Source: a virus (taxonomy: Duplodnaviria > Caudoviricetes). From it: a stretch of DNA of 44,692 bases. The stretch lies in IMG/VR virus record IMGVR_UViG_3300046786_000935, positions 1 to 44,692 of that record; one strand, written 5' to 3'. A program made the position numbers and the translations under genes. This document shows, one piece after another, positions 6,879 to 32,449 of this stretch (position 1 is the first letter of the stretch; each line of letters opens with the position of its first letter). The notes beneath the pieces were generated by a model that saw only the letters and a program-made list of their open reading frames with translations, was not told where the DNA came from and did not search any database.

Positions 6879-7670
6879 ATGAGCAGCGAAACATCCTTGT
6901 CCCTCAAAGAAGAGTATGCCATGAGAAAGGCCGAAGAAACAGCCAAGGCTTTCTCTGAGGCTAAGCAGCTCTTGGAGAGTTACTACCTCATTTTTGAGCG
7001 CCTTGATACTGCTACCATCGCACAAATCGTGGACTCCATGGCAGCAGTCGAGGATTCCCTGGCTCCTTTCCTTCCAAAGCTCCCAAGCGTGAAGTCTGGC
7101 CTGGATGCCGCCGAGGCTGAGCTCACAAAGCTTATTTCTGGAGCAGCCGGTGGCGATCCCAGGAAGCTTTCTCCGATGCTCGGCAAGGCATTGGGCTTCT
7201 ACCAGCACCTTTCCTCTTTCCTTCGCCAGGACCTTCCAGTTCTCCTGCGATCGAGATTGGTTGCTCAAGCAAAGAGCAACCCGGAGAATTCAGTTGGGCC
7301 AAAGTTGATCCCTGTCTTCAAGCAAGCCTTGGCTCAAGAGAAGACCGGTGGCTTCCTCAAGAGGCTGTTCTCCAGCTCGAACATTCCATACATCAACAAC
7401 GACTCCCTTGCCTCTGAGCTTGCAACGCTGACCTTCAATGAGCTGACCCAGCTTTCTCAGGTTGGCAAGACACCAGCGGTTATGCCACAGGCAACCATCG
7501 ACAAGATGGCAGCCCAAGCAGCAGGTGAGCCTTCTGGCGGACAAGCCCCAGCAGCCCCTCCAGCAGCCCCAGGAAAGGGAGATGTGAGGACCAAGGTACA
7601 GAAAGCCTTGGCTCCTTGGATCACGGCTCCTGAAGCCATTGACGCCGTTGTGAAGGCAGTCAGTCAGTAA
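6879..7670 (+). CDS. hypothetical helical protein, probably late/virion-associated
   Basis: GGAG RBS before ATG 6879; TATTTA at 6848-6853; LKEE near the N-terminus. Confidence 0.7.
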   Translation: MSSETSLSLKEEYAMRKAEETAKAFSEAKQLLESYYLIFERLDTATIAQIVDSMAAVEDSLAPFLPKLPSVKSGLDAAEAELTKLISGAAGGDPRKLSPMLGKALGFYQHLSSFLRQDLPVLLRSRLVAQAKSNPENSVGPKLIPVFKQALAQEKTGGFLKRLFSSSNIPYINNDSLASELATLTFNELTQLSQVGKTPAVMPQATIDKMAAQAAGEPSGGQAPAAPPAAPGKGDVRTKVQKALAPWITAPEAIDAVVKAVSQ

Positions 7671-9081
7671 GTACCACAAGCCCGCCAGTTGTCATCAAGC
7701 TGATGACAGCTTTCCCTGCCAAGTAGATGCTTGCCCAAAGGGACAAAGCTGGGAGGGTTCCAAACTCTTCGTCAAAGGAAAGCAGGGTGCGGTAGAAAGC
7801 TGCTTCCAGCTCGTCACCGAGCTCTTTGGCGAATGTCTCCTCTTTGGTATAACCAAAGGAAAGCATGTCGCTATAGTCAACGACCCCATGGGTAAGCAAG
7901 GTTTTGGCGTGACGGAGAGCAACGTCAATTCGGACCTTGGTGCTTTCCCGTTTTGATGGGGTCATGTTGGGAAGGCGAAGTGCAACGGAGGCTGCGATCA
8001 GTCCTTGAATTCTCTTGTCTGTGAGATCGGACAGGTCAGATACACTTTGCTGGTCCCTCCTTTTCTCCAGGAGCATCCTGATTTGGTTGGAAACGCCTCT
8101 TCGAGTTTTTGCGTTCTCAACGTTCAATTCCCTGGGAGTGAGTTTGACCTTTTCCACGGTTGGGAGAGAGTCAAAGGACTTGAGATAAACCAAATCACCC
8201 TTGAGCGTAGAGATCACCTCAGCGCCGCAAACCACGGCAATGTCATTCAAGACGTTCAGGGAGTCAAGTTCCGTTGTCAAGCGGACAGGCATGATGTTGA
8301 ACTTACCGTGGTCAACGTTCACCTTGATCGTTGAGATCACCTCTTCACTGAATCCATGAGCCAAAAGGAGAACAGGAATCTTGGTCTCCATGGCTCCATT
8401 GAGGATTTTGTCAATTTCGCTCACCTGTTCAAGGACTCCGTCGACCAGCATGACCTTGGGATTGGAGACTTCCCAAACTCCTGACTGGGGAATGAAGAAC
8501 TTGAATGGCTTCACGGCACTGAAGAAGTAACCTGACTTCTGCTCCACAACGTAGGAGTTCGAGATGCTGTCCTCAATGTGAATCTTCCCCTCAAGTCCAC
8601 AAACAGTGATCGCTTGCAGAATAGCCTCGCAAAGCTCCTTGTCGTCGGAGATTCTCCTGATGTCCCCCTTGAGAGCTTCTTCGCTGATATGCTTGCTGTG
8701 CTCGGCAATGGCTTTGTTCAACCGGAGTGTTGCCCTCTCGAACACCTTCATCAAGTCAACCTCATTTCTCTGAGAAAGGTTCGGCACCTTCATGAGCTGG
8801 CTGATGAACTCGTTGGCGAACCTCACAGCAAGGTAAGCGCTCCCTGCTGAGAGCATCTCACTTTGGTAGGCAGCCTGGAAAAGCAACATGTAAAGTGTCC
8901 GCTCTACCCTGTTACTCGGCTCAAGCACTTTTGTAAGGAAGTGATACGTCTCTTTGTTCAGGGGATAACCCTGCGAACTGAGAGCTACCTTGATCCTCCC
9001 CAGGGTATTTTTCATTTTTTCATTGGCCTGTTGGATGCTGGGGAGCAAGGTCGGACCATCGAGAAAGGAAGACGTTGTCAT
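7660..9081 (-). CDS. divergent GroEL/cpn60-like chaperonin
   Basis: Apical-domain match: KVMLVDGVLEQVSEIDKIL...PVLLLAHGFSEEVISTIKVN...LNDIAVVCGAEVIS; canonical GDGTTT motif absent. Confidence 0.75.
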   Translation of the reverse strand: MTTSSFLDGPTLLPSIQQANEKMKNTLGRIKVALSSQGYPLNKETYHFLTKVLEPSNRVERTLYMLLFQAAYQSEMLSAGSAYLAVRFANEFISQLMKVPNLSQRNEVDLMKVFERATLRLNKAIAEHSKHISEEALKGDIRRISDDKELCEAILQAITVCGLEGKIHIEDSISNSYVVEQKSGYFFSAVKPFKFFIPQSGVWEVSNPKVMLVDGVLEQVSEIDKILNGAMETKIPVLLLAHGFSEEVISTIKVNVDHGKFNIMPVRLTTELDSLNVLNDIAVVCGAEVISTLKGDLVYLKSFDSLPTVEKVKLTPRELNVENAKTRRGVSNQIRMLLEKRRDQQSVSDLSDLTDKRIQGLIAASVALRLPNMTPSKRESTKVRIDVALRHAKTLLTHGVVDYSDMLSFGYTKEETFAKELGDELEAAFYRTLLSFDEEFGTLPALSLWASIYLAGKAVISLMTTGGLVVLTD

Positions 9082-9735: not shown

Positions 9736-10002
9736 ATGAGTGACGAGAGTGAGTCGAAGGTTGCAGTGCTTTGGAAGGCTATGGAACAGAGCCTTGCGGA
9801 CCTTCAGAAGGACCTTGCGAAGAATACAGTGAAGCACAACGTCTCCGCAGGAGTTCGCTTGCGTGCTGGTCTTCGTGATGTCAGGAAGCAAATCTCCGAG
9901 ATCATCAAGGAGACCTTGGAAGCTGACAAGGCTGTTACCCAATCCCGTGCTGATCGCAAGGCAAAGGGTGAGGAAGCAGGAGAATCGGAAGTCTCGGCTT
10001 GA
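9736..10002 (+). CDS. Hc1-type histone H1-like DNA-binding protein
   Basis: KHNVSAGVRLRAGLRDVRK resembles the Hc1 core (GNKAAGTRARK); strong AAGGAG RBS. Confidence 0.6.
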   Translation: MSDESESKVAVLWKAMEQSLADLQKDLAKNTVKHNVSAGVRLRAGLRDVRKQISEIIKETLEADKAVTQSRADRKAKGEEAGESEVSA

Positions 10003-20042: not shown

Positions 20043-20345
20043 ATGAAAAAGAATCCCCGCTCTTCAACAAAAAAGAACTCAGCCTTCAAGCAAGCTGCAC
20101 CAAGGAGGTCGGTTGACCTTGCCGAACAACGCTTGTTGATTCTTGGGCTCATTTCCGAGCTTCGCAGCCTAGCGAAGTCCATGAAGAAAGCCAAGCCTGC
20201 AAATATCAGACAAATGAGCTTCCTTCGGGAGGAGATTCGTCGAGCCTTTCGCAGCATGTACCTCCTTGACAACAGCCTCTTTCTTGCGACGATTCAAAGC
20301 ACCAAGAAGGCAATCTCCATCGCCAAGAGCGACGAGGAAGAGTGA
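20043..20345 (+). CDS. hypothetical basic protein
   Basis: GGAG RBS; overlaps the start of the next gene. Confidence 0.6.
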   Translation: MKKNPRSSTKKNSAFKQAAPRRSVDLAEQRLLILGLISELRSLAKSMKKAKPANIRQMSFLREEIRRAFRSMYLLDNSLFLATIQSTKKAISIAKSDEEE

Positions 20346-21361
20346 TGAAGATTTCAGCCTACACGACCACTCGAAACTGCGAGGAGATGGACTATCCCTT
20401 TGTGGAGTCTATTCGGTCCATGCTTCAGTTCGCAGACGAGGTCGTTGTCCTTGATACCAGCGATGGGGAGGATGGAACTCCAGAGCAGTTGGCTTCCTTG
20501 GCCAAGGAGGATTCCAGGGTGAAGGTTCTCCATGGGAACAAGCTCTTCGACTGGACAGCTCCAAACCACGGTATCTTCGACGGGCAAACCAAGGCTATGG
20601 CTCGTGCATCTTGCACTGGTCAATTCCTTTGGCAGTTTGACGTGGATGAGCTTGTTCATGAGAAGGACGCTCCCAACATCAGGAAGATCATCGAAGGCAG
20701 CAAGTACCTTCAAGGAGCACCGATTCTTGCCCTCCCAGTGGTCGAGTATTGGGGTAGACAGGGCAAGGTGAGGGTGGACATCAATCCATGGAAGCCTCGC
20801 CTCTCCAAGAACCTTCCTGACATTACCCATGGCATCCCGAAGCACCTTCGAAGGAAGTTCGATGGATTGGATTATGCTTCCCCTGGGACCGATACATGCG
20901 ACTACATCTCAAAGGCCAGCGGCAACCCGCTTCCGGTCATTGGCTTTGTCCCTGAGCAGATTGAACAGCTTCGTCGAGGAAGCTTTACCAACCCAAAGCT
21001 CGCGGAGCCTTACGGACGTTGGTACAACTCAGTGATCAACCAACTCCCAGGTGTCTTCCATTACTCTTGGTTCAACATTGAACGCAAGATCAGGCAGTAC
21101 AAGCTCTTCTGGACCGATTTCTGGAAGGCAATGTACGGTCCCGACTCCGCTCAGAACAAAGACCCAAATTGGAATCCCTTCTTCGAGGTCCCTTGGTCTG
21201 AAGTCACCGATGAGATGATCAAAGCCAAGGCGGAAGAACTGGAGACCAAGACTGGAGGTCACATCTTCCACACAAGGTGGGCTGGTCAGGTAATTCCGCA
21301 CGTCAAGATTAACCGAGAGCACCCGGCTTTGATCAAGGAGTGGGTGAAAGCACATGGATGA
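20342..21361 (+). CDS. glycosyltransferase family 2 (GT-A)
   Basis: KISAYTTTRN, DEVVVLD..DGT, WQFDVDE (DxD), FHYSW. Confidence 0.85.
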   Translation: MMKISAYTTTRNCEEMDYPFVESIRSMLQFADEVVVLDTSDGEDGTPEQLASLAKEDSRVKVLHGNKLFDWTAPNHGIFDGQTKAMARASCTGQFLWQFDVDELVHEKDAPNIRKIIEGSKYLQGAPILALPVVEYWGRQGKVRVDINPWKPRLSKNLPDITHGIPKHLRRKFDGLDYASPGTDTCDYISKASGNPLPVIGFVPEQIEQLRRGSFTNPKLAEPYGRWYNSVINQLPGVFHYSWFNIERKIRQYKLFWTDFWKAMYGPDSAQNKDPNWNPFFEVPWSEVTDEMIKAKAEELETKTGGHIFHTRWAGQVIPHVKINREHPALIKEWVKAHG

Positions 21362-21527
21362 GAACATCCCGGAAGTGAACATCGTTTTCGAGGGCCCCCC
21401 AGTTCCCAAAAAGTTGAAAATTAAGCGGTCTGGCCTTCTTGAAAAAAGAAATCCGTTCCGTCGCACTCTGTTGGCCTACTCGGTCTGGCTGAGATATGCA
21501 CAAAACAATTTCGGAGATCACCATTGA
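21354..21527 (+). CDS. mini-ORF A (57 aa), capsid-like segment plus PFRxT tag
   Basis: Manual translation MDENIPEVNIVFEGPPVPKKLKIKRSGLLEKRNPFRRTLLAYSVWLRYAQNNFGDHH; overlaps the GT stop. Confidence 0.65.
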   Translation: MDENIPEVNIVFEGPPVPKKLKIKRSGLLEKRNPFRRTLLAYSVWLRYAQNNFGDHH

Positions 21528-21815
21528 CCTTACCACCGAAGAGGAAAATCAGGGCTATATGGACAGTCGAAATGCAGCAGGATGTCAAAGCTTATCATTC
21601 TCTCATGTTCGGAAAAGGCAGTCCATTCCGTCGTACTGCATTGTCCTATCAATTCTGGCTGAGATATGTACGAAGCGATCCCTGAAATCACCATTGATCT
21701 TGCCACTGTAGAAGCCCCGAAGAGGAAAATCAGGGCTATATGGGGACCTCGACTGCTTGATGACCGATATTGGATTTGGCGTGCTTGGCTAGCAGGTCCA
21801 TTCCGTCGTACTGTC
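21453..21815 (+). repeat. imperfect tandem repeat, period ~170-175 bp (two units plus the start of a third)
   Basis: CC(G/A)TTCCGTCG(C/T)ACT at 21453, 21623 and 21798; TCTGGCTGAGATATG, ATCACCATTGA and CCGAAGAGGAAAATCAGGGCTATATGG each present twice. Confidence 0.85.
21524..21685 (+). CDS. mini-ORF B (53 aa), capsid-like segment plus PFRxT tag
   Basis: TTG start with GGAG 7 nt upstream; MTLPPKRKIRAIWTVEMQQDVKAYHSLMFGKGSPFRRTALSYQFWLRYVRSDP. Confidence 0.65.
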   Translation: MTLPPKRKIRAIWTVEMQQDVKAYHSLMFGKGSPFRRTALSYQFWLRYVRSDP

Positions 21816-21884
21816 TTAGTTCCAAGGCTCAAAGATGAAAAACCCATTTCGCATGACCTGCATTCGGATCAAGACGGTGTATAG
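21666..21884 (+). CDS. mini-ORF C (72 aa), capsid-like segment plus PFRxT tag
   Basis: MYEAIPEITIDLATVEAPKRKIRAIWGPRLLDD...GPFRRTVL. Confidence 0.65.
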   Translation: MYEAIPEITIDLATVEAPKRKIRAIWGPRLLDDRYWIWRAWLAGPFRRTVLVPRLKDEKPISHDLHSDQDGV

Positions 21885-22029
21885 TCATATGAGCAACCTT
21901 CTGATGAAGTCCAGAAGCATCGGCATAAGCGCCACCCTCGCTAGGTTGATGATGTTGCAGTCGTCGGGGTCACGAAGAGAACGCAGGTTGTGGCTCAAGC
22001 AAGTAAGAAGACGAAGAAGGCTGAAATGA
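21835..22029 (+). CDS. mini-ORF D (64 aa), N-terminal PFRxT tag, very basic
   Basis: MKNPFRMTCIR...; ATGA coupling to the next ORF. Confidence 0.55.
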   Translation: MKNPFRMTCIRIKTVYSHMSNLLMKSRSIGISATLARLMMLQSSGSRRERRLWLKQVRRRRRLK

Positions 22030-22238
22030 CAAACAACAACAGCTTCACGAAACTCCAGTTCCCGATTGTTCGGAGGACCTTTCCATCTCTCGGCGGTTTG
22101 TATACCAGAAAGGCCAAAAACCCCTTTCGATTCACCTGCTTGAGACCTGACGCGTCTGTGTTCCTTCACCGTGATGAACCAGCCATACTTCTCACAAAAG
22201 ACATGTTCCAACTTCTGAAGTGTGAGATTTCCCTGTGA
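22026..22238 (+). CDS. mini-ORF E (70 aa), Gol-like capsid segment plus PFRFTCL
   Basis: MTNNNSFTKLQFPIVRRTFPSLGGLYTRKAKNPFRFTCLR. Confidence 0.65.
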   Translation: MTNNNSFTKLQFPIVRRTFPSLGGLYTRKAKNPFRFTCLRPDASVFLHRDEPAILLTKDMFQLLKCEISL

Positions 22239-22450
22239 AAACTCTTTCAGTGGAGACGCTAAGGGAAATGGCTGTTCACCTCTATGGTTCAAATTTGGCT
22301 ATAGCTGAAACTGAAGTCCCAGTGTTCGTTGAGAGACACGAGGAGTTTCTTCCGGTCATTCGCCCTTTTCGCTTTACGTGTCTTGGTAGATTGTCGAAGG
22401 AGTTTTGGACAAAGCACCTCCTCGCCGAACTAGGAAAGGGTGCGTCATGA
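22235..22450 (+). CDS. mini-ORF F (71 aa) with PFRFTCL tag
   Basis: GTGA/ATGA coupled at both ends; FLPVIRPFRFTCLG. Confidence 0.6.
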   Translation: MKTLSVETLREMAVHLYGSNLAIAETEVPVFVERHEEFLPVIRPFRFTCLGRLSKEFWTKHLLAELGKGAS

Positions 22451-22662
22451 TTGAGAAGGAAACGGTCAAGCTGGCAATTGCGAGGATTTGCGAGCACCTC
22501 GACCAAGCGGCTGCGGAGGAGTATGTGCGCAATCTGATTGAGGTCAAGGTTCCGGCTGCTTTTCGCTTTACATGTCTCAGTAATTCCATCAAGGAGAACG
22601 CCGTTGGTGAGTTCCTGGAATTCGTTCGGTCCAACTACCGAACCAAGGATGGAAGTGCCTGA
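22447..22662 (+). CDS. mini-ORF G (71 aa) with AFRFTCL tag
   Basis: ATGA-coupled start; VPAAFRFTCLS. Confidence 0.6.
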   Translation: MIEKETVKLAIARICEHLDQAAAEEYVRNLIEVKVPAAFRFTCLSNSIKENAVGEFLEFVRSNYRTKDGSA

Positions 22663-22733
22663 AGAGGGAGCTATCCAAATATGTCGCCCCAAGAAATTCT
22701 CAAGCGTCGCATAGGAAAGACGAAGATAAAGGT

Positions 22734-23501
22734 ATGTCAGAAACAACCTCCCCGGCCGAAGAGGCTACTGATTCAGTTGTCACAAGTCCTCGGATCACTG
22801 TTGTGGTGCCTTGCTACAATCATGGACGGTATCTCCGAGAAGCTACGGAAAGTCTGATCGCTCAGACCTACAAGAACCTGGAGATCATCATTGTCAACGA
22901 CGGCTCATCGGACAATACTGCTGAGGTTGCCCAAGAGCTGGTCAAGGAAGATCCAAGAGTCAGGTTCATCAACTTCCCCGAGAACAAGGGGAAGTGGTTC
23001 TGCTTGAACACAGCGATCGAGCAGAGCACCGGTTTGATCATCACCTCCCAGGACGCCGATGACATTGCTCTTCCCAATAGGATTGAGCGCCAGTTCATGG
23101 CGATGCAGTTCACAGAGAGCGTCCACAATCTCTGTGGGTTCCATCACTGCCGTTCCGAGGCCGAAGTTGAGGCTCTCAAGAGTACAGTGGTTGAAGGGGA
23201 GCTCAAGGGAATTGACTCCGAGAACGTGGCCAAGATGGTTGAATACGGATTCTCCACAAAGGGAATCAACCACTACTTCACCGCCGAGTTTGAAACGGCG
23301 GGAACATCTGCTATGTTCCTGAAGGCGATCTGGAACATTGGTTTCCGTTTCAACCCACCTGGAGTGGGCTTGAGGGTTACAAATTCCGAGGATTCGGACT
23401 TCAACATCCGAGTTACCTTGGCTTTGAGGAATACCAGCGTTCTCGCTGAGCAGCTCTACCTCTACAGAAGATGGACGGGCACAAACAACGAGAGTAAGTG
23501 A
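22734..23501 (+). CDS. glycosyltransferase family 2
   Basis: ITVVVPCYNHGRYL, EIIIVNDGSSD, QDADD, EDSDFNIR. Confidence 0.92.
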   Translation: MSETTSPAEEATDSVVTSPRITVVVPCYNHGRYLREATESLIAQTYKNLEIIIVNDGSSDNTAEVAQELVKEDPRVRFINFPENKGKWFCLNTAIEQSTGLIITSQDADDIALPNRIERQFMAMQFTESVHNLCGFHHCRSEAEVEALKSTVVEGELKGIDSENVAKMVEYGFSTKGINHYFTAEFETAGTSAMFLKAIWNIGFRFNPPGVGLRVTNSEDSDFNIRVTLALRNTSVLAEQLYLYRRWTGTNNESK

Positions 23502-23502
23502 A

Positions 23503-23784
23503 ATGCTACAATACGACGAGCAAACTCTAACGTCTTACGGATGGGCACCCTTTGCTCAGGTCTTCGGTGAACTCCCTGGCTTGGAGCAGGAACTACAGCA
23601 GTTCGTGCATGAACGACTGACACAAGAAACTGCTCGCAGGATCACTGAGGTCACTCAGAACTACCTCGATAGAGCAATGCTAAGCATGCACCTCCATCCT
23701 AGCGGTCCTCGTCCCAAACTGGAGTTCTGGAATCCACCCGGCACCAATTCGATGATTTTGGTTGTGAAAACAGGGAGAAAATGA
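23503..23784 (+). CDS. hypothetical protein
   Basis: 93-aa ORF packed between coupled genes. Confidence 0.6.
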   Translation: MLQYDEQTLTSYGWAPFAQVFGELPGLEQELQQFVHERLTQETARRITEVTQNYLDRAMLSMHLHPSGPRPKLEFWNPPGTNSMILVVKTGRK

Positions 23785-24023
23785 GCAATTCAACTCTCCC
23801 CCCTGTACCAACCCATCCACCCTTGCGTAGCTGCTGGAGACACTTCAAGGGCAACGTCTACATCGTATCGGACATTGCTCGGGACTGTGAGGAGCCTGGG
23901 AGGTTCCTCGTGGTTTACCGAAGCATGAAGGGGGACGTTTGGGTTCGTCCTCTCCCTGACTTCCTCGGAACTCACGAAAGCGGCGTTCCGAGATTTGAAC
24001 AGATCACGCAGCCGCAGCTCTAG
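23781..24023 (+). CDS. DUF1653-family protein
   Basis: WRHFKGNVYIV...A...E...LVVYR...VWVRPLPDF...PRF. Confidence 0.85.
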   Translation: MSNSTLPPVPTHPPLRSCWRHFKGNVYIVSDIARDCEEPGRFLVVYRSMKGDVWVRPLPDFLGTHESGVPRFEQITQPQL

Positions 24024-24055
24024 TTTCGAACCACCAAGTGACATAATTACGGTGT

Positions 24056-25762
24056 ATGCCAAGTCTATCGAAATTCTTCGAGTGGTACTCGAACCAAGAG
24101 CTCCAGGAACGCCAGCGTGGGGAAAAGTTTGGCTTGCCCAAAGTCGATCGAGCAGCAAGAATCAAATCGTACGCCAAGTACGGGTATCTTGCTCATTTTG
24201 GCAACCTTGGGGATAGTGGCGACCGCTTTTCGAACGACCGCTACGTTTCGAAGCATGAGTTTAGGTGGGAAACACCATCTGGCGTTTATGGTTACCCACT
24301 TGACTTGATGGCTGACAATGTCATCAAGAATGCCGTTCCATTCGCAGCAGAGTCCCCGTACATCTACATCCTCAAGGTTCACCACCCCGAGAAGCTTTTG
24401 AACTTGCGGGAGTATGACGACCCAGAACTTGCTGCTGACTTGGAAAAGCTCAAGGGCATGTTTGATCCGGCAATTTTTGCTGATACCCTCAAGCGATATC
24501 GCAATTACAACGCCCCCGAGCAGATCGTGTACATGACCAACACCCTAAGCGGAAGGAATCCGCATAAGTGGTCCTCCATTCTGAGGAAGCTTGGGTATGT
24601 CGGAATCTACGATCCAGAGTACGGCATCATCCACGAAAACGAACCAACTCAGGTGGTTCTCTTTGGACCTGACGTGTTTGAAGTGGTTGACAAAATTGAA
24701 AACAACCCCGGAAGTCAAGAAAGGAACTACGAGCTGGCATCTTCCCCCGGCACTGATGCACGCACACTAGGGAAGCTAGCAGCGCTCCAGGATGGGGAAT
24801 TGAGCAGTGTGATTGCCAAGAATCCGAACGCCAACGAGCGAACTCTCAGGAAGATTTTCTCCGACTTCGCTTGGCCTGGGGTGGCCATGAGTCTTTTGAT
24901 TAACCCGAAGCTGCCAGCAGACATGATCGAACCTGCTATAGCTGTGTTGGAAAAACGCCCTGATTTGCTTTCTGGTGTTGCCAGAAATGCAGTTTCTCAA
25001 AAGGTAATCCAAGCCTTGCTTGCTAGGAACAACCACAACATCAATTCCGGTCTGGTAGGAAATTTGAATGTCCCGGACGCTACAGTCGCAGGCTTGTTTC
25101 AAGTCGGGCCTATCACTTGGGACTTTATGGCAGAATTGTCTTCCAGACCAAAAATCTCACCACAGTTGTATCAGATGGTGTGGCCGTCACTATCCCCCAA
25201 GAACAAGATAAACATTGCCTTCCGAGATGATTTTCCTGTTCTTGCAGATGATCAGAAAACGCTGAGCACGTACTTTCATGATGTACTTGCCGCTGCAACT
25301 GAACCTGTTGACTACGTGAACATTCTCCGAAGGGAAAAGTTGCCGCCAGAGGCTCTTATGCAAATTGCAGCCAAAGTGCAAAGCAATACCTCGTGGAACG
25401 TTCACCAACTCAAACAAGTTTACGAACCAATGTTCGAGCAGGAGAACGCCACCGAGCTCATTCGAGCTCTTGTTCAGTCTGCGCCTGAAATCGTGAAAAT
25501 CCTCATGGCTTCTTCCGACCAAACACCAGTGGACGTGTTGGAGCAACTTGTTGCAGAGAACAGCATGGATTTGCTTTACGCGCTCGTGTACAACTCAAAG
25601 TCAACTCCTAAGATTTTCCAAGCAATTCTGGCGAAACAGCCGCCAGAGAACCCAGACGATCAAAGCGTCTTGAAAATTGCCAAAAAGGCTGCGGCTCGCA
25701 AGTTGGGTGTCGCTCCTCCGCTTACGGAGAGCTTGGTGAACTTCTACGCCAGACTCTACTAG
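24056..25762 (+). CDS. late/virion-associated protein: possible ADP-ribosyltransferase-like N-domain plus helical (LRV/HEAT-like) repeats
   Basis: TPSGVYGYP...LRKLGYVGIYD...IHENEPTQVVLF; repeats such as IAKNPNANERTL and LINPKLPADMI; TAATTA 6 nt before ATG. Confidence 0.55.
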   Translation: MPSLSKFFEWYSNQELQERQRGEKFGLPKVDRAARIKSYAKYGYLAHFGNLGDSGDRFSNDRYVSKHEFRWETPSGVYGYPLDLMADNVIKNAVPFAAESPYIYILKVHHPEKLLNLREYDDPELAADLEKLKGMFDPAIFADTLKRYRNYNAPEQIVYMTNTLSGRNPHKWSSILRKLGYVGIYDPEYGIIHENEPTQVVLFGPDVFEVVDKIENNPGSQERNYELASSPGTDARTLGKLAALQDGELSSVIAKNPNANERTLRKIFSDFAWPGVAMSLLINPKLPADMIEPAIAVLEKRPDLLSGVARNAVSQKVIQALLARNNHNINSGLVGNLNVPDATVAGLFQVGPITWDFMAELSSRPKISPQLYQMVWPSLSPKNKINIAFRDDFPVLADDQKTLSTYFHDVLAAATEPVDYVNILRREKLPPEALMQIAAKVQSNTSWNVHQLKQVYEPMFEQENATELIRALVQSAPEIVKILMASSDQTPVDVLEQLVAENSMDLLYALVYNSKSTPKIFQAILAKQPPENPDDQSVLKIAKKAAARKLGVAPPLTESLVNFYARLY

Positions 25763-26445
25763 AAGGACTTAGCAACGAAGTCCTTGATCTTCTGGACGTG
25801 CTCACCGCTTACGTTGCCAAGGATCGTTCTCACAGACTGAGTTCCAGCGTAATCCTTGGAATACCAGCCTTCACCTGGGAAGTTCTTCTTGGTTGGGTGG
25901 TGACCATGCCACTCGAAGTTCGAGTTGAATACCCTGCGTCCAAGGAGCATGAGAACCGCTTCTTGGCTGGAAACCACCGGAACCCCTCTGGAGATGAAAA
26001 AGGCAGCGGCTTGGTCAGGAAGTTCTGCCCACCAGTTTGGCCTTCCCAGGATGTCTTTGATTGCCTTCATCAGGAAGCCCTTGCCAGCAGGGGAGCCATC
26101 GGAAGCAAAGACGGAAACCTTGACGCTTCCATTCCTTGTTGTTGAAGCAAAAGCAGCACTCCTGATCTTACCTTCTTTGTCAAGGGCGGGGTTGTTGAAA
26201 AACCAGTAGTCGTAGTTGTCCAACGCTCCAGGGGATGATACGTTCATGTGCCCGCCAACATCTCCGTAAGCGGAGTTGATGAGCTTGAACAGTTCAGATC
26301 GAACTTCATCAGCAAGCTCTGAATCGGGAGAGATTTCGATCATCTCCGGTTTTCCCTCAAAGGGGCTTGGTGTTGTATTGAGCTCAGGTTCAACTGGCTC
26401 ATTTTCGAGCAACAACCAAGAGTAGTATTCGTACAATGTCCGCAT
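25759..26445 (-). CDS. hypothetical late/virion-associated protein
   Basis: ATG 26445 lies 5 nt after TATTTA; N-terminus MRTLYEYYSWLLLENE. Confidence 0.65.
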   Translation of the reverse strand: MRTLYEYYSWLLLENEPVEPELNTTPSPFEGKPEMIEISPDSELADEVRSELFKLINSAYGDVGGHMNVSSPGALDNYDYWFFNNPALDKEGKIRSAAFASTTRNGSVKVSVFASDGSPAGKGFLMKAIKDILGRPNWWAELPDQAAAFFISRGVPVVSSQEAVLMLLGRRVFNSNFEWHGHHPTKKNFPGEGWYSKDYAGTQSVRTILGNVSGEHVQKIKDFVAKSF

Positions 26446-26491
26446 AGGGCTAAATAGCTCAAAGCGATCAACAAGAAAGAAGATCAGCAAT

Positions 26492-27193
26492 ATGAAGATT
26501 TCACTTTTGTGTCCAACACGTTCTCGTCCCCATGCAATGCAGCGCCTTTGGGAGTCTGCATGGGAGACAGCCGACGACAAGGCAAACCTGGAGATCGTCT
26601 TCTACATGGACAAGGATGACTTCCACTCCCACCGCCAGTTTGAGAAGATGGACTCTCCTCGACACTACGGTATCATTGGGGAACGAATCGTCCTCTCCGA
26701 GATGTGGAACGAGTGCCAGAAGATCGCCACGGGCGAGGTCTACATGCACTGCGGGGATGATATCATCTTCCGTTCCAAGGGTTGGGACACCTTGGTTCGT
26801 GAACACATGAATCGCTACCCCGACAAGATTGTCTTCGTCCACGGAATGGACGGCATCCAGAATGAGCGTCTTGGAACCCACGGCTTCCTTCACAAGAACT
26901 GGGTGGAGACGATCGGTTACTTCGTTCCTCCGTACTTCTCCTGCGACTACAACGATACGTGGCTGACAGATGTGAGCTCGATGATTGGCCGTAGGATCTA
27001 CGAGCCCAAGATTTACACCGAGCACATGCACTGGGCAGTTGGGAAGCAGCCAAGGGATCAAACCTACACAGATACCATCGCCAGGGGTCAGAGAGACGGT
27101 GTGACGGCCATGTACGAGTCCATGCTTCCCAAGCGTCAGGAAGACGCCAGGAAGCTCCAGGAGTTCATCAAGAGTTGCGAGGGAACCAAATGA
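26492..27193 (+). CDS. glycosyltransferase family 2
   Basis: KISLLCPTRSRP, EIVFYMDKDD, WNEC, CGDDIIFR, YNDTWL. Confidence 0.85.
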   Translation: MKISLLCPTRSRPHAMQRLWESAWETADDKANLEIVFYMDKDDFHSHRQFEKMDSPRHYGIIGERIVLSEMWNECQKIATGEVYMHCGDDIIFRSKGWDTLVREHMNRYPDKIVFVHGMDGIQNERLGTHGFLHKNWVETIGYFVPPYFSCDYNDTWLTDVSSMIGRRIYEPKIYTEHMHWAVGKQPRDQTYTDTIARGQRDGVTAMYESMLPKRQEDARKLQEFIKSCEGTK

Positions 27194-27279
27194 CTTGGCT
27201 TGAACTCTACCGCCTCAATCACCCTCAGAACGCCATGAAGTACGGCATCCTATGCCCGTACATCCCATTGGTGATGTGA
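27190..27279 (+). CDS. mini-ORF H (29 aa) ending in capsid-like CPYIPL
   Basis: MTWLELYRLNHPQNAMKYGILCPYIPLVM; ATGA-coupled start and TGATG-coupled end fill the gap exactly. Confidence 0.55.
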   Translation: MTWLELYRLNHPQNAMKYGILCPYIPLVM

Positions 27280-27602
27280 TGTTGAAACACTACACCCTGA
27301 TCTATTCCCGTGGGGAACCGAAAATTGCTCTAGACCTCTTTGAAGAGGAGCTCAAGCGCAAGGGGTCAATTTTCGAGACCGACACGGAGTTCCATGTTTG
27401 GGTCGATAACGACGACCATGCTACAGCAAAGGAGTTCTACTCCTTTCGGAAGTACATTCGGAAGGGGTTGAGGATCAAGCTCTACATCAACCCACCTCTG
27501 CTTTACCGGAAGGTTTGGGACTTTTTGGTCAGCCAGCTTGGTGCAAACATTCAGATCAACAACGTTTCCCGTGAAGTTATCTACGCCTCGGAGAGTGCAT
27601 GA
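27279..27602 (+). CDS. hypothetical protein
   Basis: Coupled at both ends (MLKHYTL...). Confidence 0.6.
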   Translation: MLKHYTLIYSRGEPKIALDLFEEELKRKGSIFETDTEFHVWVDNDDHATAKEFYSFRKYIRKGLRIKLYINPPLLYRKVWDFLVSQLGANIQINNVSREVIYASESA

Positions 27603-28654
27603 AACGCCTGACAGTCATCCAAGAAGGTGCTCCAGCACCCACAAAGCCAGTGAGCTACGAGAAGCAGACGCAAGCCTACTCCACCTGGGGAGGTAAGCTT
27701 CTGCAACACACAGACGTGCTGCACTCCATCCAGGCAAAGAAGGAGTTCAAGCCAATCACCATCCAACTTGCTCCAACGGAAGCCTGCGACTCCAACTGTC
27801 CGTTTTGCTCGGTTGCCTGGAGACCTGTGGACAAGAAGATTCCTTGGGACACCCTTGAGAAGGGTCTGAGGGAGTTTAGGGAGCTTGGAGCCAAGTCCGT
27901 GGAGATCACAGGCGGTGGAAACCCCCTTCTCTACAAGGATGGTTCCAGGAACATCAACGATGTGATCGAGCTGGCCCATTCCCTTGGGTACGAGATTGGT
28001 GTGATTACCAACTCCGAGAAGCTCTCTCGGCACATCAAGCCAGAGAATGCCAGCAAGCTCTCTTGGATCAGGATTTCCTTGATCAAGCTCGACGAAGGAA
28101 AGAGCCCGGAAGATTACGACTTTTCAGGTTTCCCTGTGGAGAAGCTTGGATTTTCCTACATCATCTATGAGGGAACTACCAAGAAGTCCATCGAGAGCAT
28201 CGCACGGCTTGTGGAACTGAACCCCGAGATCAAGTTCGTTCGTATTGCTTCGGACTGCCTTACCGAGCAATCCCTGACAATCAAGGGGGATTGGGGCGAC
28301 ATTGTTCAGGCAATGGACACCCACAAGAAGTTCTTCATCAAGGAGATCGGGGAGACCTTCCACCCCTATGAAGGTGGCTGCTGGGTTGGCATGGTAAGGC
28401 CGTATTGGGTTTGGGACGGGGTGTACATGTGTACCTCCCACGTCCTCAAGCACAGGGGCTACCATGACACCTGGAAGCTCTGTAAGGGCGATGAGATCAA
28501 GGAAGCCTGGGGCAAGATGAACCAGCGCTTCCAGGCCGGTCAGAACCCTTATGACATCGACATCCAGAAGGAGTGCTGGCACTGTTACTACTACAACAAT
28601 AACCGGCTCCTGTCCGATGTGATCACGGAACTGCCAGACAGGAATTTCGCATGA
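27599..28654 (+). CDS. radical SAM enzyme with C-terminal Cys (SPASM/twitch-like) region
   Basis: CDSNCPFC (CxxxCxxC), ITGGGNP, ITN, C-terminal CWVG...C...CWHC. Confidence 0.9.
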   Translation: MKRLTVIQEGAPAPTKPVSYEKQTQAYSTWGGKLLQHTDVLHSIQAKKEFKPITIQLAPTEACDSNCPFCSVAWRPVDKKIPWDTLEKGLREFRELGAKSVEITGGGNPLLYKDGSRNINDVIELAHSLGYEIGVITNSEKLSRHIKPENASKLSWIRISLIKLDEGKSPEDYDFSGFPVEKLGFSYIIYEGTTKKSIESIARLVELNPEIKFVRIASDCLTEQSLTIKGDWGDIVQAMDTHKKFFIKEIGETFHPYEGGCWVGMVRPYWVWDGVYMCTSHVLKHRGYHDTWKLCKGDEIKEAWGKMNQRFQAGQNPYDIDIQKECWHCYYYNNNRLLSDVITELPDRNFA

Positions 28655-28833
28655 TGGATTCCTCCGAGACTTCGTCTGTGGGAGAGCAGCTCGCCAGAAT
28701 ATTGGAGGCTGAAATTTCCAAGTCGATCGACGACGAGATCCTTGCGTACTATAGGTACCATTTTGAAGGAAGAAGCAAATCACCATTTAGGATGACTCGG
28801 GTCAAGATCCGGGAATGCCAACATACCCGTTGA
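28651..28833 (+). CDS. mini-ORF I (60 aa), capsid-like helix plus PFRxT tag
   Basis: EQLARILEAEISKSIDDEIL...SPFRMTRV. Confidence 0.65.
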   Translation: MMDSSETSSVGEQLARILEAEISKSIDDEILAYYRYHFEGRSKSPFRMTRVKIRECQHTR

Positions 28834-29045
28834 CCACAACCATCCCAACGAACGTGGAGTCGATCGCTACAACATCAAGCCTTCCTAAGTTCGACGCGTC
28901 GGGCTCGCTTTACACACCGTACGTGCCCATGCAAGTCACGCCACTTTTTCCTGCGAAGAAGGCTGGCTCTCCCTTTAGGTTTACTAACCTAAAGCTGATT
29001 CCTGTTTTCTCTGTAAGAAAGGCGTTTCGGCATGCACAGGGTTAA
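28815..29045 (+). CDS. mini-ORF J (76 aa), capsid-like PYVP segment plus PFRxT tag
   Basis: DASGSLYTPYVPMQVTPLF...SPFRFTNL. Confidence 0.65.
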   Translation: MPTYPLTTTIPTNVESIATTSSLPKFDASGSLYTPYVPMQVTPLFPAKKAGSPFRFTNLKLIPVFSVRKAFRHAQG

Positions 29046-29166
29046 AGGATCGCCCTTTCTTGAATCTGGGTACGTGTTCGCTCCGTACATTCCCAAGCTC
29101 GGCTTGATGAGCCCCTTTCGATTCACTTGCCTGAAGATCAAGGAGAAAGAGAAGGCGGTTTGGTGA
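29032..29166 (+). CDS. mini-ORF K (44 aa), capsid-like APYIP segment plus PFRFTCL
   Basis: Manual translation MHRVKGSPFLESGYVFAPYIPKLGLMSPFRFTCLKIKEKEKAVW. Confidence 0.7.
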   Translation: MHRVKGSPFLESGYVFAPYIPKLGLMSPFRFTCLKIKEKEKAVW

Positions 29167-29318
29167 TAAGCACGGGAAGCGGATTTGGCATTTGCTTGAC
29201 AATCAGCGAAAGCGTGACTATCCCAATTCCTTCGTGGCCCAAGGGCAGTCCGTTTAGGCGGACGTGTTTAACGATCAAGAGGAACAATGAGCTCTACTGC
29301 AAACCCATACACCGCTGA
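29163..29318 (+). CDS. mini-ORF L (51 aa) with PFRRTCL tag
   Basis: GTGA-coupled start; KGSPFRRTCLT. Confidence 0.55.
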   Translation: MISTGSGFGICLTISESVTIPIPSWPKGSPFRRTCLTIKRNNELYCKPIHR

Positions 29319-29907
29319 CTACTACAAGTCCAGCAACTACGCTGACTACCTGGAGCGAGCTGACCGCTACAAGAAGACAGCCTACGAGCTGGTTGACCTT
29401 CTTCGGAAGCTTGGTTTGATCGACAAGGAGAGCTGGATCGTCGACTTTGGCTGTGCCGTTGGTTTTCTCCTGGAGGGGTTTGACGACCTTGGTTACCGGC
29501 AGATCGGCGGCTATGATGTGTCCGACTGGGCCATTGCCGAAGGCAGGGCGAGGGGGAATGACATCTACAAGTGGGATGACACTGTTCAGCACACTGTGGG
29601 TACAGACATCCTGACGGCGCTTGATGTGTTCGAGCACATGGAGGATGACGAGATCAGGAGAGTTCTCAAGGTTCTCAGTCCCAAGTGCATGGTCCTCAGA
29701 ATCCCCACTTCTGTGGATGGCGGCAAGACCTTTGCTCTGGAGGTCTCTCGCCAGGACCCAACCCACATCAACTGCAAGACGAAGGAACAGTGGATCGAGT
29801 TCTTCCAAAAGGAAGGGTTCGGAACCTTCCTTCGTTTGAACCTCTTCACGATCTACGACACTCCAGGGGTAACCTGTCTACTTTGCTTGCCTTCTGAGTA
29901 TCGTTGA
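29287..29907 (+). CDS. class I SAM-dependent methyltransferase
   Basis: IVDFGCAVG, GYDVS, DVFEH, DPTHIN; GAGG RBS. Confidence 0.88.
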   Translation: MSSTANPYTADYYKSSNYADYLERADRYKKTAYELVDLLRKLGLIDKESWIVDFGCAVGFLLEGFDDLGYRQIGGYDVSDWAIAEGRARGNDIYKWDDTVQHTVGTDILTALDVFEHMEDDEIRRVLKVLSPKCMVLRIPTSVDGGKTFALEVSRQDPTHINCKTKEQWIEFFQKEGFGTFLRLNLFTIYDTPGVTCLLCLPSEYR

Positions 29908-30303: not shown

Positions 30304-31626
30304 ATGAAGATCGGTTTCATGGGACTCGGAAAGCTCGGCCTTCCGTGCGCATTGGCATCGGAGCATGCAGGTCACGAAGTTGTGGGTTATGACCCAAACC
30401 CTGCGGTCAAGGATTACATCCGGAACAAGAAGATCCCCTACCGTGAGGAAGGTACGCCAGAGCTGCTTCAGAACACCAAGATCAGGGTGGTTTCCGTCCA
30501 AGAGATGGTTGACTTCTCGGACTTGATCTTTGTGGCTGTTCAGACACCGCACAACCCACGTTTCGAGGGAACGACAAGGATTCCAGAGGAGAGGGTCGAC
30601 TTTGACTACTCCTACCTCATTGGAGCTTGCAAGGAGCTGAATGCAGCGATCGAGAAGAAGGGCAAGGATACCCCTGTTGTGGTCATCTCCACGGTCCTTC
30701 CTGGGACAATGGACTCCCAGGTGATCCCTCACCTCGGATCGCACTTCAAGCTTTGCTACAACCCATTCTTCATTGCAATGGGTACAACGAGATACGACTT
30801 CACCCACCCTGAGTTCGTTCTCTTTGGGATGAGTGATCCGGCGACTGCGGATCTTGCTGAGTCATTCTACAAGACGATTCACAACGCTCCGTTCTATCGT
30901 TGCTCGATCAAGTCCGCCGAGTTGGTCAAGGTGGCCTACAACACCTTCATCAGCACGAAGATTGCCTTTGTCAACAACCTCATGGAGATTTGCCATCACA
31001 CGGGCGCAGATGTTGACGAAGTCACCAATGCTTTGAAGCTCGCCAACGAGCGCCTTATCTCTCCGAAGTATCTCACCGCAGGTATGGGAGACGGCGGAGG
31101 TTGTCACCCTCGTGACAACATTGCCCTTTCCTGGCTCTCCAGGAAGCTTGGAATGACCTTCGATTTCCACGAGGCCATTATGATGGCAAGGGAGAAGCAA
31201 ACGGACTTCTTGGCTAATTTGGTTGAGGAATACCGAAAGGTTGCCGTTTACTCGCCGGAGGACTTCTCGTTTCGAGAGTTCAAGACTCTTCCTGTGGTGA
31301 TTCTCGGAAAGGCATTCAAGGAACAGACCAACCTTGAAGTTGGTTCACCTTCAATTCTTCTGAAGAATATCCTTGCCGAGAAAGGCATCTCGGCAGAGAT
31401 GTACGATCCATGGGTTGATGGAGCAGAGGACATGGCAGTGAATCCTTATGAGAAGGGAGAACCCAAGCTGTTCTTTATTGGAACTCGCCATGCTGTCTTC
31501 AAGGACTACAAGTTCCCGGCTGGATCAACGGTTCTCGATCCCTGGAGAATGATCCCAGAGCAGCCAGGAGTTCGAGTGATTGGAATTGGCCAAGCCCATA
31601 AGCCAGTCCAAGTTTTCAAGCTGTGA
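30304..31626 (+). CDS. ugd: UDP-glucose/GDP-mannose 6-dehydrogenase
   Basis: GLGKLG Rossmann motif, AVQTP, STVLPGT, AELVKVAYN, GDGGGCHPRD (catalytic Cys), LGKAFK. Confidence 0.93.
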   Translation: MKIGFMGLGKLGLPCALASEHAGHEVVGYDPNPAVKDYIRNKKIPYREEGTPELLQNTKIRVVSVQEMVDFSDLIFVAVQTPHNPRFEGTTRIPEERVDFDYSYLIGACKELNAAIEKKGKDTPVVVISTVLPGTMDSQVIPHLGSHFKLCYNPFFIAMGTTRYDFTHPEFVLFGMSDPATADLAESFYKTIHNAPFYRCSIKSAELVKVAYNTFISTKIAFVNNLMEICHHTGADVDEVTNALKLANERLISPKYLTAGMGDGGGCHPRDNIALSWLSRKLGMTFDFHEAIMMAREKQTDFLANLVEEYRKVAVYSPEDFSFREFKTLPVVILGKAFKEQTNLEVGSPSILLKNILAEKGISAEMYDPWVDGAEDMAVNPYEKGEPKLFFIGTRHAVFKDYKFPAGSTVLDPWRMIPEQPGVRVIGIGQAHKPVQVFKL

Positions 31627-31645
31627 CAAAGCGATACTTACTTCC

Positions 31646-32449
31646 ATGAAACTGGCAAAGTTCTGGAAGTGGTACCTCAAGGAATCCAACACCCAACTTG
31701 GGTATTTCGGGTTAGATGAGTTCGTAAAAGGAAGTCCCGTTGTTCTCTACCATGGAACAACGACTTCCTTTTCGTCATTTGACATCGGCAAATCCAGAAA
31801 AGACCTCGTTGACAAATACACCGGAATTGGCATCTTTCTCACCCCATCCAAGAAGATCGCTTGGAAGTACGCGACGTCTTCGAGGAACAAGGGTTTGCCT
31901 GTCGAAGTAATCAACGACGTAAAAAAAGCCAACCCACACGCGGGGGAGTTCCTGGAAGTGCTCTACAAGCATGGACAGCCAGGGTGGGAGCTCTTTTGGA
32001 AAGAGAAGGGGTTCCTAAGAGACAACCCAGGCGAAGGGGAGGGAGAGTTGGACACGGAGGCGTTTCGGGCTTATCTGAACGCTGATGCCAACTCCTTGAT
32101 GGATGTGGCAACCTTCATCGAAGGAAGCTCTTATGAGGCTTCTGGTGGCGAGGAAAGCAGCTTGCTTGACCTTTTCTCTGGAGCGCCACAAGGAGCACCA
32201 GATTGGCTTTTTGATGTGCTTGATTCCCTGGGAGTTGATTCCACCAAGTACAGGCCGAAGGTTTACAAGGTAAGCGCACAAGCAAGCCATGTTCTTGTAA
32301 CAGCAGACAAAGAAGAGGCAAAGAGGGCTTTCTCTCTTGGTTATGATGCCTTTGTGTTCACTGGTGAGGATTTGGTTGATGGTGTGCCGGAAGTGGCAAT
32401 TCGAGATGGTTCACAGGTGAACATTTTGGATGTTGAGGTAGACTCATAG
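31646..32449 (+). CDS. ADP-ribosyltransferase-like protein (ART-PolyVal type), late
   Basis: VLYHGT...FSSFD...GIGIFLT....AWKYA ... GYDAFVF...EVAIRDGSQV; TACTTA 5 nt before ATG. Confidence 0.7.
   Translation: MKLAKFWKWYLKESNTQLGYFGLDEFVKGSPVVLYHGTTTSFSSFDIGKSRKDLVDKYTGIGIFLTPSKKIAWKYATSSRNKGLPVEVINDVKKANPHAGEFLEVLYKHGQPGWELFWKEKGFLRDNPGEGEGELDTEAFRAYLNADANSLMDVATFIEGSSYEASGGEESSLLDLFSGAPQGAPDWLFDVLDSLGVDSTKYRPKVYKVSAQASHVLVTADKEEAKRAFSLGYDAFVFTGEDLVDGVPEVAIRDGSQVNILDVEVDS

What the first reader, a model, noticed from the sequence alone, without database searches (positions are those of the whole stretch)
21354..29318. Family of mini-genes encoding fragments of a major capsid protein: candidate capsid-mimic/decoy system
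Seen: about 12 short (29-76 aa) ORFs, mostly coupled by overlapping stop/start codons, in three spots of the glycosylation region; four are below the ORF-track cutoff and one more has a later start than the track shows. Their variable parts resemble the most conserved blocks of T4 gp23-type capsid proteins (T4 sequences recalled from memory). B KRKIRAIWTVEMQQDVKAYHSL matches SRQLKAAYSIELAQDLRAVHGM. A and C (IPEVNI/IPEITI...KKLK/KRKIR) match the strand just before that block. I EQLARILEAEISKSIDDEIL matches AELSGILATEIMLEINREVV. K KGSPFLESGYVFAPYIP, J GSLYTPYVPMQVTP and H GILCPYIPLVM match YKG....DAGIYYAPYV. E FPIVRRTFPSL matches MGMVRRAIPNL. Hits to four separate conserved capsid blocks are unlikely by chance. 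The pieces are out of order, partly redundant and have their own starts and stops, so this is not simply a decayed capsid gene. Inference: the peptides may titrate capsid-sensing defences (CapRel and Lit are established examples of capsid-triggered systems), poison a competing phage's head assembly, or modulate the phage's own assembly.
Basis: partly seen in the sequence, partly recalled or inferred. Interest (0 to 1): 0.92.

Follow-up and report, generated by a model that had tools for sequence, protein, structure and literature searches.

The report
Tagged capsid-fragment mini-genes, large phage
An uncultured large T4-like phage packs twelve tiny genes into the junctions of a sugar-modification operon; eight carry short diverged copies of conserved pieces of its lineage's head-shell protein and eleven share one short peptide tag, a gene design that I found in no paper and that likely makes decoys against host sensors of newly made phage proteins.

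Summary
Confirmed, with corrections. The window is a 44.7-kb fragment of a large myophage and holds no intact capsid gene, but relatives do. Six mini-ORFs (B, C, E, H, J, K) match that capsid protein individually; A and I match only as families; D, F, G and L do not. D likely copies the terminase Walker A region.

The finding did not describe a second part: 11 of 12 ORFs share a tag (PFRxTxL) conserved as protein, not DNA. Sister lineages keep capsid pieces in the same operon slots with an in-register variant (LRKAGLK), so the tag appears to have changed in all copies of a lineage together.

The frames are under purifying selection (strain dN/dS about 0.4). Strains lose whole units and recombine at or near the tag. 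B lacks 11 nt against its sister copy C. The capsid piece is the fastest-changing part. Translation, partner and host are unknown.

Most likely the products are two-part decoys for short-motif sensors (0.4). Nine literature searches found no description. This scan noted the same design before in at least 27 other genomes.

The parts
21354..21527 (+). A, 57 aa: weak copy of capsid strand 377-389, tag at 21453
   Evidence: Alone 1697/3000; family 97.8%; G001 counterpart scores 12 bits on the capsid profile
21524..21685 (+). B, 53 aa, TTG start: capsid 394-414, tag at 21623; tandem copy of C lacking 11 nt near 21535
   Evidence: 0/3000; Pfam Gp23 E=0.012; DNA alignment; no indel listed there in runs X9 and X12
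21666..21884 (+). C, 72 aa: capsid 377-407, tag at 21798
   Evidence: 0/3000; E=6.6e-4; three strain homologues
21835..22029 (+). D, 64 aa: tag at 21844, then a likely copy of the large-terminase Walker A region (terminase 49-85); basic tail
   Evidence: Best hit among 418 long segments is terminase; ranks 3rd of 33,461 segments on a terminase profile at 11.3 bits, reversed-control maximum 12.9
22026..22238 (+). E, 70 aa (82 from GTG 21990): capsid 80-95, the first half of the Gol-equivalent region; tag at 22122
   Evidence: 2/3000; family 90.6%; alignment to T4 gp23; Gol position recalled
22235..22450 (+). F, 71 aa: tag at 22364, cargo not recognised
   Evidence: unit dropped start-to-start in run X12
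22447..22662 (+). G, 71 aa: tag at 22558, cargo not recognised
   Evidence: F/G chimera P0133
27190..27279 (+). H, 29 aa: ends in capsid 587-596; no tag
   Evidence: 13/3000; 93% identical in G001, pN 0.03, pS 0.25; ATG to GTG in three runs
28651..28833 (+). I, 60 aa: weak copy of the long capsid helix 419-437, tag at 28783
   Evidence: Alone 102/3000; family 91.5%
28815..29045 (+). J, 76 aa: capsid 581-608, tag at 28971
   Evidence: 0/3000; E=2e-4
29032..29166 (+). K, 44 aa: capsid 576-593, tag at 29113
   Evidence: 0/3000; E=1.2e-6
29163..29318 (+). L, 51 aa, GTG start: tag at 29250, cargo not recognised
20342..21361 (+). Family-2 glycosyltransferase; upstream border of slot 1
   Evidence: Pfam PF00535; conserved order in L001, L002, L004, L005
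26492..27193 (+). Glycosyltransferase; upstream border of slot 2
   Evidence: phrog_14945
27599..28654 (+). Radical SAM protein; upstream border of slot 3
   Evidence: PF04055; conserved in L001-L005

Best explanation
The array encodes two-part peptides, a shared tag joined to an exchangeable copy of a conserved piece of the lineage's capsid or (likely) terminase protein, which likely act as competitive decoys at host proteins that recognise newly made, unassembled phage proteins by short motifs. Shown: the anatomy, the capsid likeness of 8 of 12 ORFs, purifying selection on the frames, protein-level conservation of the tag, and unit loss and exchange among strains. Inferred: the genes are translated by coupling along the glycosylation operon; the pieces occupy a sensor without switching it on; the tag binds one common partner, which would explain why all copies in a lineage change together; recombination between copies renews the set of mimics.
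For: The copied segments are a long strand, the following helices and a C-terminal strand of the T4-type fold. By general knowledge of the HK97 fold these are the P-domain sheet and spine helix, the region that CapRel is predicted to contact (PMC9712102). E copies part of the Gol-equivalent region. Capsid and terminase are both established triggers, and Lit and CapRel read short motifs (PMC13581612). A phage protein that competes with a trigger has a precedent in DSAD1. Selection. Tag identity by codon position is 0.61/0.84/0.29. The capsid block is the most variable part among strains, 166/213 identical against 97/99 for the tag, which would fit an arms race.
Against: No binding, translation or host is shown. 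Three prevalent capsid sensors (Avs7, 8, 10) wrap the folded protein, which 10-30-residue pieces cannot imitate. A free trigger peptide may activate rather than block, as Gol does with Lit. The fast drift of the cargo also fits weak constraint, and strain P0132 has largely lost the helix likeness (8/19 identical) while keeping tag and tail. F, G and L carry the tag without a recognisable mimic. B is frameshifted against its upstream ATG. The terminase match does not exceed the best reversed control genome-wide.
Confidence: 0.4

Rival explanations
1. The tag is the working part (an address or docking label, or a peptide that titrates one partner), and the capsid pieces are passengers captured from highly expressed genes and only weakly kept.
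For: Tag 97/99 identical among strains against 166/213 for the block (the homologues were found with a tag-dominated profile, which favours this). Three tagged ORFs in the window, and several in G004, G005 and L072, have no capsid piece. Cargo is replaced in P0132.
Against: The same blocks persist in the same slots across lineages whose tags differ. H keeps a block with no tag (93% identical in G001). The same C-terminal block recurs with other handles, such as twin-arginine-like leaders in 9 of 99 short hits.
Confidence: 0.22
2. The peptides act on head assembly or packaging: they bind capsid subunits, the phage chaperonin or the terminase to pace the phage's own assembly or to poison a related co-infecting phage.
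For: The pieces are core structural segments of the capsid fold. The counterparts in the closest relative score best against the clade's own capsid. A GroEL-like gene lies in the window.
Against: Pieces like the phage's own capsid would harm its own heads unless discriminated. The window's B and J score higher against other capsid groups than against the clade, so the target is unclear. Unit number varies freely among strains, which is unlike an essential assembly factor.
Confidence: 0.18
3. The peptides serve the surrounding glycosylation operon as acceptor mimics or adaptors that bring its enzymes to virion proteins.
For: All 16 hits of the sister tag in short frames, and 17 of 18 hits of the relaxed window-type tag, lie in this operon's junctions, including across the whole 189-kb and 129-kb contigs. 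Virion glycosylation by phage enzymes is reported (cited in PMC12619734).
Against: Related glycosyltransferase loci L006-L024 and L063-L071 show no tag and no capsid piece above the reversed-control range. Unchecked notes of this scan place similar genes in other operons.
Confidence: 0.1
4. The ORFs are decaying debris of illegitimate recombination, kept open only to preserve translational coupling through the operon.
For: B's 11-nt loss, a 1-nt deletion in A in run X5, frequent unit loss, and divergence from G001 far above that of neighbouring genes.
Against: Neutral simulations never kept all 7 frames open (0/300 at each of 5 distances) and did not reach the observed codon contrast at distances up to 0.8. 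Strain variants are 15 synonymous to 14 non-synonymous, p=0.005. Coupling alone would not keep a peptide motif with randomised third positions.
Confidence: 0.08

Closest known systems
T4 gp23 major capsid protein family (Pfam PF07068; PDB 8t9r, 6uzc, 7vrt)
   Same: Source of the copied segments; the relatives' full protein matches gp23 by sequence (E about 6e-29) and by fold.
   Different: The mini-proteins hold 10-31 residues of it, cannot form the HK97 fold, and add a tag not matched to the capsid.
Gol peptide of T4 gp23 (Gol / Lit / EF-Tu exclusion; PMC3014915, passages seen)
   Same: A short conserved capsid segment with activity of its own; E copies part of the equivalent region.
   Different: Gol is a region of the real capsid protein and activates a defence. 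E is a separate gene with about 16 matching residues and a tag; EF-Tu binding is untested.
DSAD1, inhibitor of DSR2 (PMC11087589, passages seen)
   Same: A small phage protein that competes with a structural trigger (tail tube) for the sensor; this is the mode of action proposed here.
   Different: The passages read describe competition for an overlapping site, not a gene copied from the trigger, and no array or shared tag.
Segmental amplification of tifA in T4 (10.1101/2022.04.14.488369, abstract and outline seen)
   Same: Recombination changes the copy number of a small counter-defence gene.
   Different: TifA is one gene that inhibits a toxin; here the units differ in cargo and exchange halves.

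Membership tests
gp23-type major capsid or vertex protein | Full HK97 fold, Pfam PF07068 above cut-off | tested here: not met
   29-76 aa; best Pfam score 15.5 against cut-off 24.4
gp23-type major capsid or vertex protein | Homology of segments to the family | tested here: met
   6 ORFs individually and 2 by family
Pseudogene or split capsid gene | Collinear, non-redundant pieces with neutral decay | tested here: not met
   Pieces are redundant, out of order and in three slots; pN is below pS
Gol-type activating peptide | 29-residue region that binds EF-Tu and activates Lit | tested here: inconclusive
   E matches 16 residues of the equivalent region; binding not tested
Trigger-competing anti-defence protein (DSAD1 type) | Binds the sensor at the trigger site and lowers defence | not testable with these tools
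   Host and sensor unknown
Large terminase (PF03237) | Homology to the Walker A region | tested here: inconclusive
   D and its G001 counterpart rank 3rd and 4th of 33,461 segments but within the reversed-control range; E=1.6e-4 among the 12 ORFs; G001 copy 10/5000 and D 55/5000 shuffles against G003 terminase
DNA repeat or cassette array with a recombination site | Repeat conserved as DNA | tested here: not met
   Third-position identity 0.29; same codon in 83 of 277 same-residue pairs; no Rfam match

The most novel reading that the evidence does not exclude
Large T4-like phages carry a recombining library of 'handle plus epitope' peptides cut from the very proteins that bacterial immunity watches (capsid, terminase). 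The epitope engages the sensor and the lineage-specific handle recruits one common partner that disables or removes it. This would be an undescribed, modular class of counter-defence, and its cargo would list the phage surfaces that hosts recognise.
Probability: 0.25. Interest if true: 0.93.

Novelty: categorically new. Interest (0 to 1): 0.72.

Why it matters
Capsid and terminase are established immune triggers that phages cannot easily mutate. Selected mini-genes that copy their conserved segments suggest another route: keep the protein and supply look-alikes. Whatever the function, a tag that changes in all copies of a lineage while its codons are randomised points to an unknown binding partner and gives a direct pull-down bait. 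These genes fall below usual annotation cut-offs. The design appears in uncultured large phages but was not seen in the two nearest cultured ones, which may explain why I found no description.

Tried and rejected
1. Tag derived from the terminase PFQxxC motif: attractive from D's alignment, but that site ranks only 154th of 152,012 windows, and the tag is in register with the sister tag; set aside as weak.
2. Sister tag derived from a baseplate-wedge helix: it takes ranks 1, 3, 4 and 5 (orthologues, one observation), but it is a common helix-end pattern (general knowledge); left open.
3. Capture from foreign capsids: mixed. The G001 B- and K-type copies score best against the clade, the window's B and J against other groups. 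The phage's own capsid gene is outside the contig (12% complete).
4. Cargo of F, G and L: no significant match in Pfam, PHROGs or 418 long segments of G000-G005; no usable ESM Atlas hit for F and G.
5. Expression: contigs of RNA runs X15 and X16 cover most of the ORFs, but contigs cannot show transcription and may be DNA.
6. Promoter-like sites 6 against 5.9 expected; terminator-like sites 18 against 11.6 +/- 3.9; no Rfam match.
7. DNA pattern scans of viral contigs found nothing or only G001.
8. The single-sequence fold failed (pLDDT 30); the alignment-based model was used.
9. No complex prediction was sent: the partner is unknown, and pieces of one fold would tend to pass by likeness.
10. 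One search used a miscount of strain variants (16:14); one search gives the corrected 15:14.
Full report
Setting. The window is the whole record G000, one 44,692-nt contig, estimated 12% complete. It is part of a large myophage: GroEL-like, PhoH, primase-polymerase, glycosyltransferases, radical SAM, UDP-glucose dehydrogenase and baseplate genes. The nearest named phages match the baseplate at only 30-32%. No intact capsid gene lies in the contig. Relatives found through the radical SAM gene supplied one: G002 and G004 each encode a 637-aa gp23-type protein, which matches T4 gp23 by sequence and by predicted fold.

The observation. Twelve ORFs of 29-76 aa sit in three junctions: seven after the first glycosyltransferase, one after the third, four after the radical SAM gene. 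Each overlaps the preceding stop by 1-50 nt. Against the G002 capsid protein with 3000 shuffles, B, C, J and K were reached by 0, E by 2, H by 13, I by 102 and A by 1697; D, F, G, L and 8 control ORFs were not significant. A profile of the capsid's C-terminal half (122 sequences) run on 33,461 six-frame segments (1.16 Mb) gave 18 hits of 8 bits or more against 1 in the reversed set: 2 full capsids, 3 stretches of partial paralogues and 13 mini-ORFs, all in these operon slots of G000-G004 and L072. On the own contig, all 6 profile matches are mini-ORFs. A and I are supported only as families, and those alignments are partly circular. The copied segments are capsid 80-95, 377-414, 419-437 and 576-608. 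In the model these last three are a long strand, two helices and a C-terminal strand at pLDDT about 75-88; 60-106 is unreliable. Calling them P-domain sheet and spine helix rests on general knowledge of the fold.

The tag. Eleven of 12 ORFs contain [PA]FR.T.[LIV], and the pattern occurs nowhere else in six frames of the window. Among these 11 copies, identity by codon position is 0.61, 0.84 and 0.29, and only 83 of 277 same-residue pairs share the codon, so it is kept as protein. G001 has six copies of a variant with W at the variable position, plus one of the sister type. G002, G004, G005 and L072 carry L[RK]KAGL[KR] instead (16 hits in short frames against 4 reversed), as does L088. G003 matches neither pattern. 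The two tags fall at the same place in counterpart ORFs and score against each other in register in the top 0.3% and 0.8% (medians) of 154,097 background windows. I infer one tag that changed across all copies of a lineage, which suggests each copy is held to a common partner. In L072 and L088 the tag interrupts an otherwise continuous 60-85-residue copy of the capsid C-terminus.

A likely terminase piece. D's best match among 418 long segments is the G004 large terminase, over its Walker A region (motif name recalled). In G001 the E-type and D-type pieces form one ORF with the tag between them. On a 120-sequence terminase profile, D and that ORF rank 3rd and 4th of 33,461 segments, behind the two real terminases, at 11.3 and 10.0 bits; reversed segments reach 12.9. 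Among the 12 ORFs alone D has E=1.6e-4. I call it likely, not proven.

Selection. Seven ORFs against their G001 counterparts give pooled pN 0.33 and pS 0.73. Local alignment biases this, so I simulated neutral change: all 7 frames never stayed open (0/300 at each of 5 distances), and the observed codon contrast was not reached at distances 0.3-0.8. It was reached in 35 and 175 of 300 runs at 1.2 and 2.0, where only 122 and 67 codons aligned against 267 observed. The simulation had no indels, and the ORFs' pS exceeds that of the core genes (0.24-0.61) in every pair but H, so some pairs may be older paralogues. For strains, one search listed 40 of 212 variant places; I used 27 in the ORFs plus 2 for H, and dropped 5 rows in A's indel region and H's start-codon change. 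The result is 15 synonymous to 14 non-synonymous, p=0.005, dN/dS 0.36; with the 5 rows counted as non-synonymous, p=0.03 and 0.48. B alone is not significant.

Turnover. P0128 is A's front joined to B's tail (31/32 and 14/15 identical) and P0133 is F's front joined to G's tail (42/42 and 29/29), both switching at the tag. Contigs from three of four runs, each a different study, skip whole units: B (X15, X5), D with E's front (X5) and F start-to-start (X12). These are single contigs laid at 80% likeness. B and C are tandem copies; B lacks 11 nt, which puts its upstream ATG out of frame, and runs X9 and X12 list no indel there. A has 6-nt insertions in two runs and a 1-nt deletion in one. Over 11 strain homologues the capsid block is 166/213 identical, the tag 97/99 and the rest 356/409; the search profile favoured the tag. 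This fits either diversifying selection on the mimic or weak constraint on it.

Breadth. A profile of the H/J/K family against 1.84 billion representatives gave 127 hits. Of 99 short ones, 24 score like pieces of real capsids and 75 are diverged. Of those 75, 15 carry the sister tag, 2 the window's tag and 9 a twin-arginine-like leader; none of the 24 has either. Some of these hits are the alignment's own members. The window's tag itself was found only in close strains and G001 (14 hits among 209 candidates). Among named phages the C-terminal block gave 1164 places in 1163 records. The cultured relatives immuto 3-5A and Mel-JY01 show only their capsid gene, while LR756511 has a 99-aa ORF with the block.

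Mechanism. I favour two-part decoys (0.4). The copied regions overlap what short-motif sensors read: CapRel is predicted to contact the P-domain sheet and spine helix (PMC9712102, passages), Gol is a 29-residue active segment (PMC3014915, passages), and terminase is sensed by Avs1-3 (PMC13581612, abstract, passages and sections 8 and 13). The same paper says Avs7, 8 and 10 wrap the folded capsid protein, which these peptides cannot imitate, and Gol shows that a free segment can activate a defence. DSAD1 is the nearest functional precedent (PMC11087589, passages). Rivals are tag-only function (0.22), assembly interference (0.18), a role in glycosylation (0.1) and debris (0.08). Translation, partner and host are all untested.

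Novelty. Nine searches listed no paper on tagged capsid-fragment genes. Term searches in a 2026 review (PMC13728456), a jumbo-phage survey (PMC7824862) and a lineage paper (PMC12619734) showed no such passage; I saw passages only and no supplements, and most subscription papers are not held. The scan's own unchecked notes report the design in at least 27 other genomes and none for this sequence or genome. I had seen both tags and the terminase likeness before those look-ups. What this locus adds is the in-register change of tag between sister lineages, strain chimeras that switch at the tag, and a measure of which part drifts fastest.

Noticed in passing
L025 180-749 (-); L026 609-1403 (-): A 189-264-aa partial capsid paralogue covering capsid 445-572 lies directly downstream of the capsid gene in G002 and G004; it covers a region that the mini-ORFs do not copy. 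Weak matches to a similar region occur in LR756508, LR756511 and G010.
   Followed up: partly
window 27784-27787: Runs X7 and X19 carry about 1.2 kb of extra DNA inside the radical SAM gene at this point (table 8); possibly an intron, intein or homing-endonuclease insert. The UDP-glucose dehydrogenase gene is similarly interrupted in L004 and L005.
   Followed up: no
L088 13918-14757 (+): A 279-aa ORF joins tag, capsid helix, a linker that overlaps another tagged ORF in a second frame, and a capsid C-terminal copy with the tag inserted; it may be a fusion of several units.
   Followed up: partly
P0326, P0356: Small proteins with a twin-arginine-like leader and two capsid blocks, in opposite order in the two proteins.
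   Followed up: no
window 24056-25762 (+) and 25759-26580 (-): A 568-aa ORF with a weak LRV-repeat match and a convergent 273-aa ORF interrupt the operon; they are absent, apart from the first 30-35 codons of the latter, from L001-L005.
   Followed up: no
window 31580-32449 (+): ADP-ribosyltransferase domain of the polyvalent-protein type (PF18760, E=1e-9) inside the sugar operon; present in L004, not in L001, L002, L003 or L005.
   Followed up: no
window 28566-29335, run X16 contig 1: A more distant relative (about 80% identical) has 988 other bases in slot 3, so a different cassette occupies the same junction.
   Followed up: no
window 7660-9081 (-) and 9736-10002 (+): GroEL-like chaperonin (phrog_5725) and a small histone H1-like protein (PF07432).
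   Followed up: no
L128 1339-1638 (+), LR756511.1: A 99-aa ORF with two CxxC pairs followed by a diverged capsid C-terminal block, far from that phage's capsid gene.
   Followed up: partly
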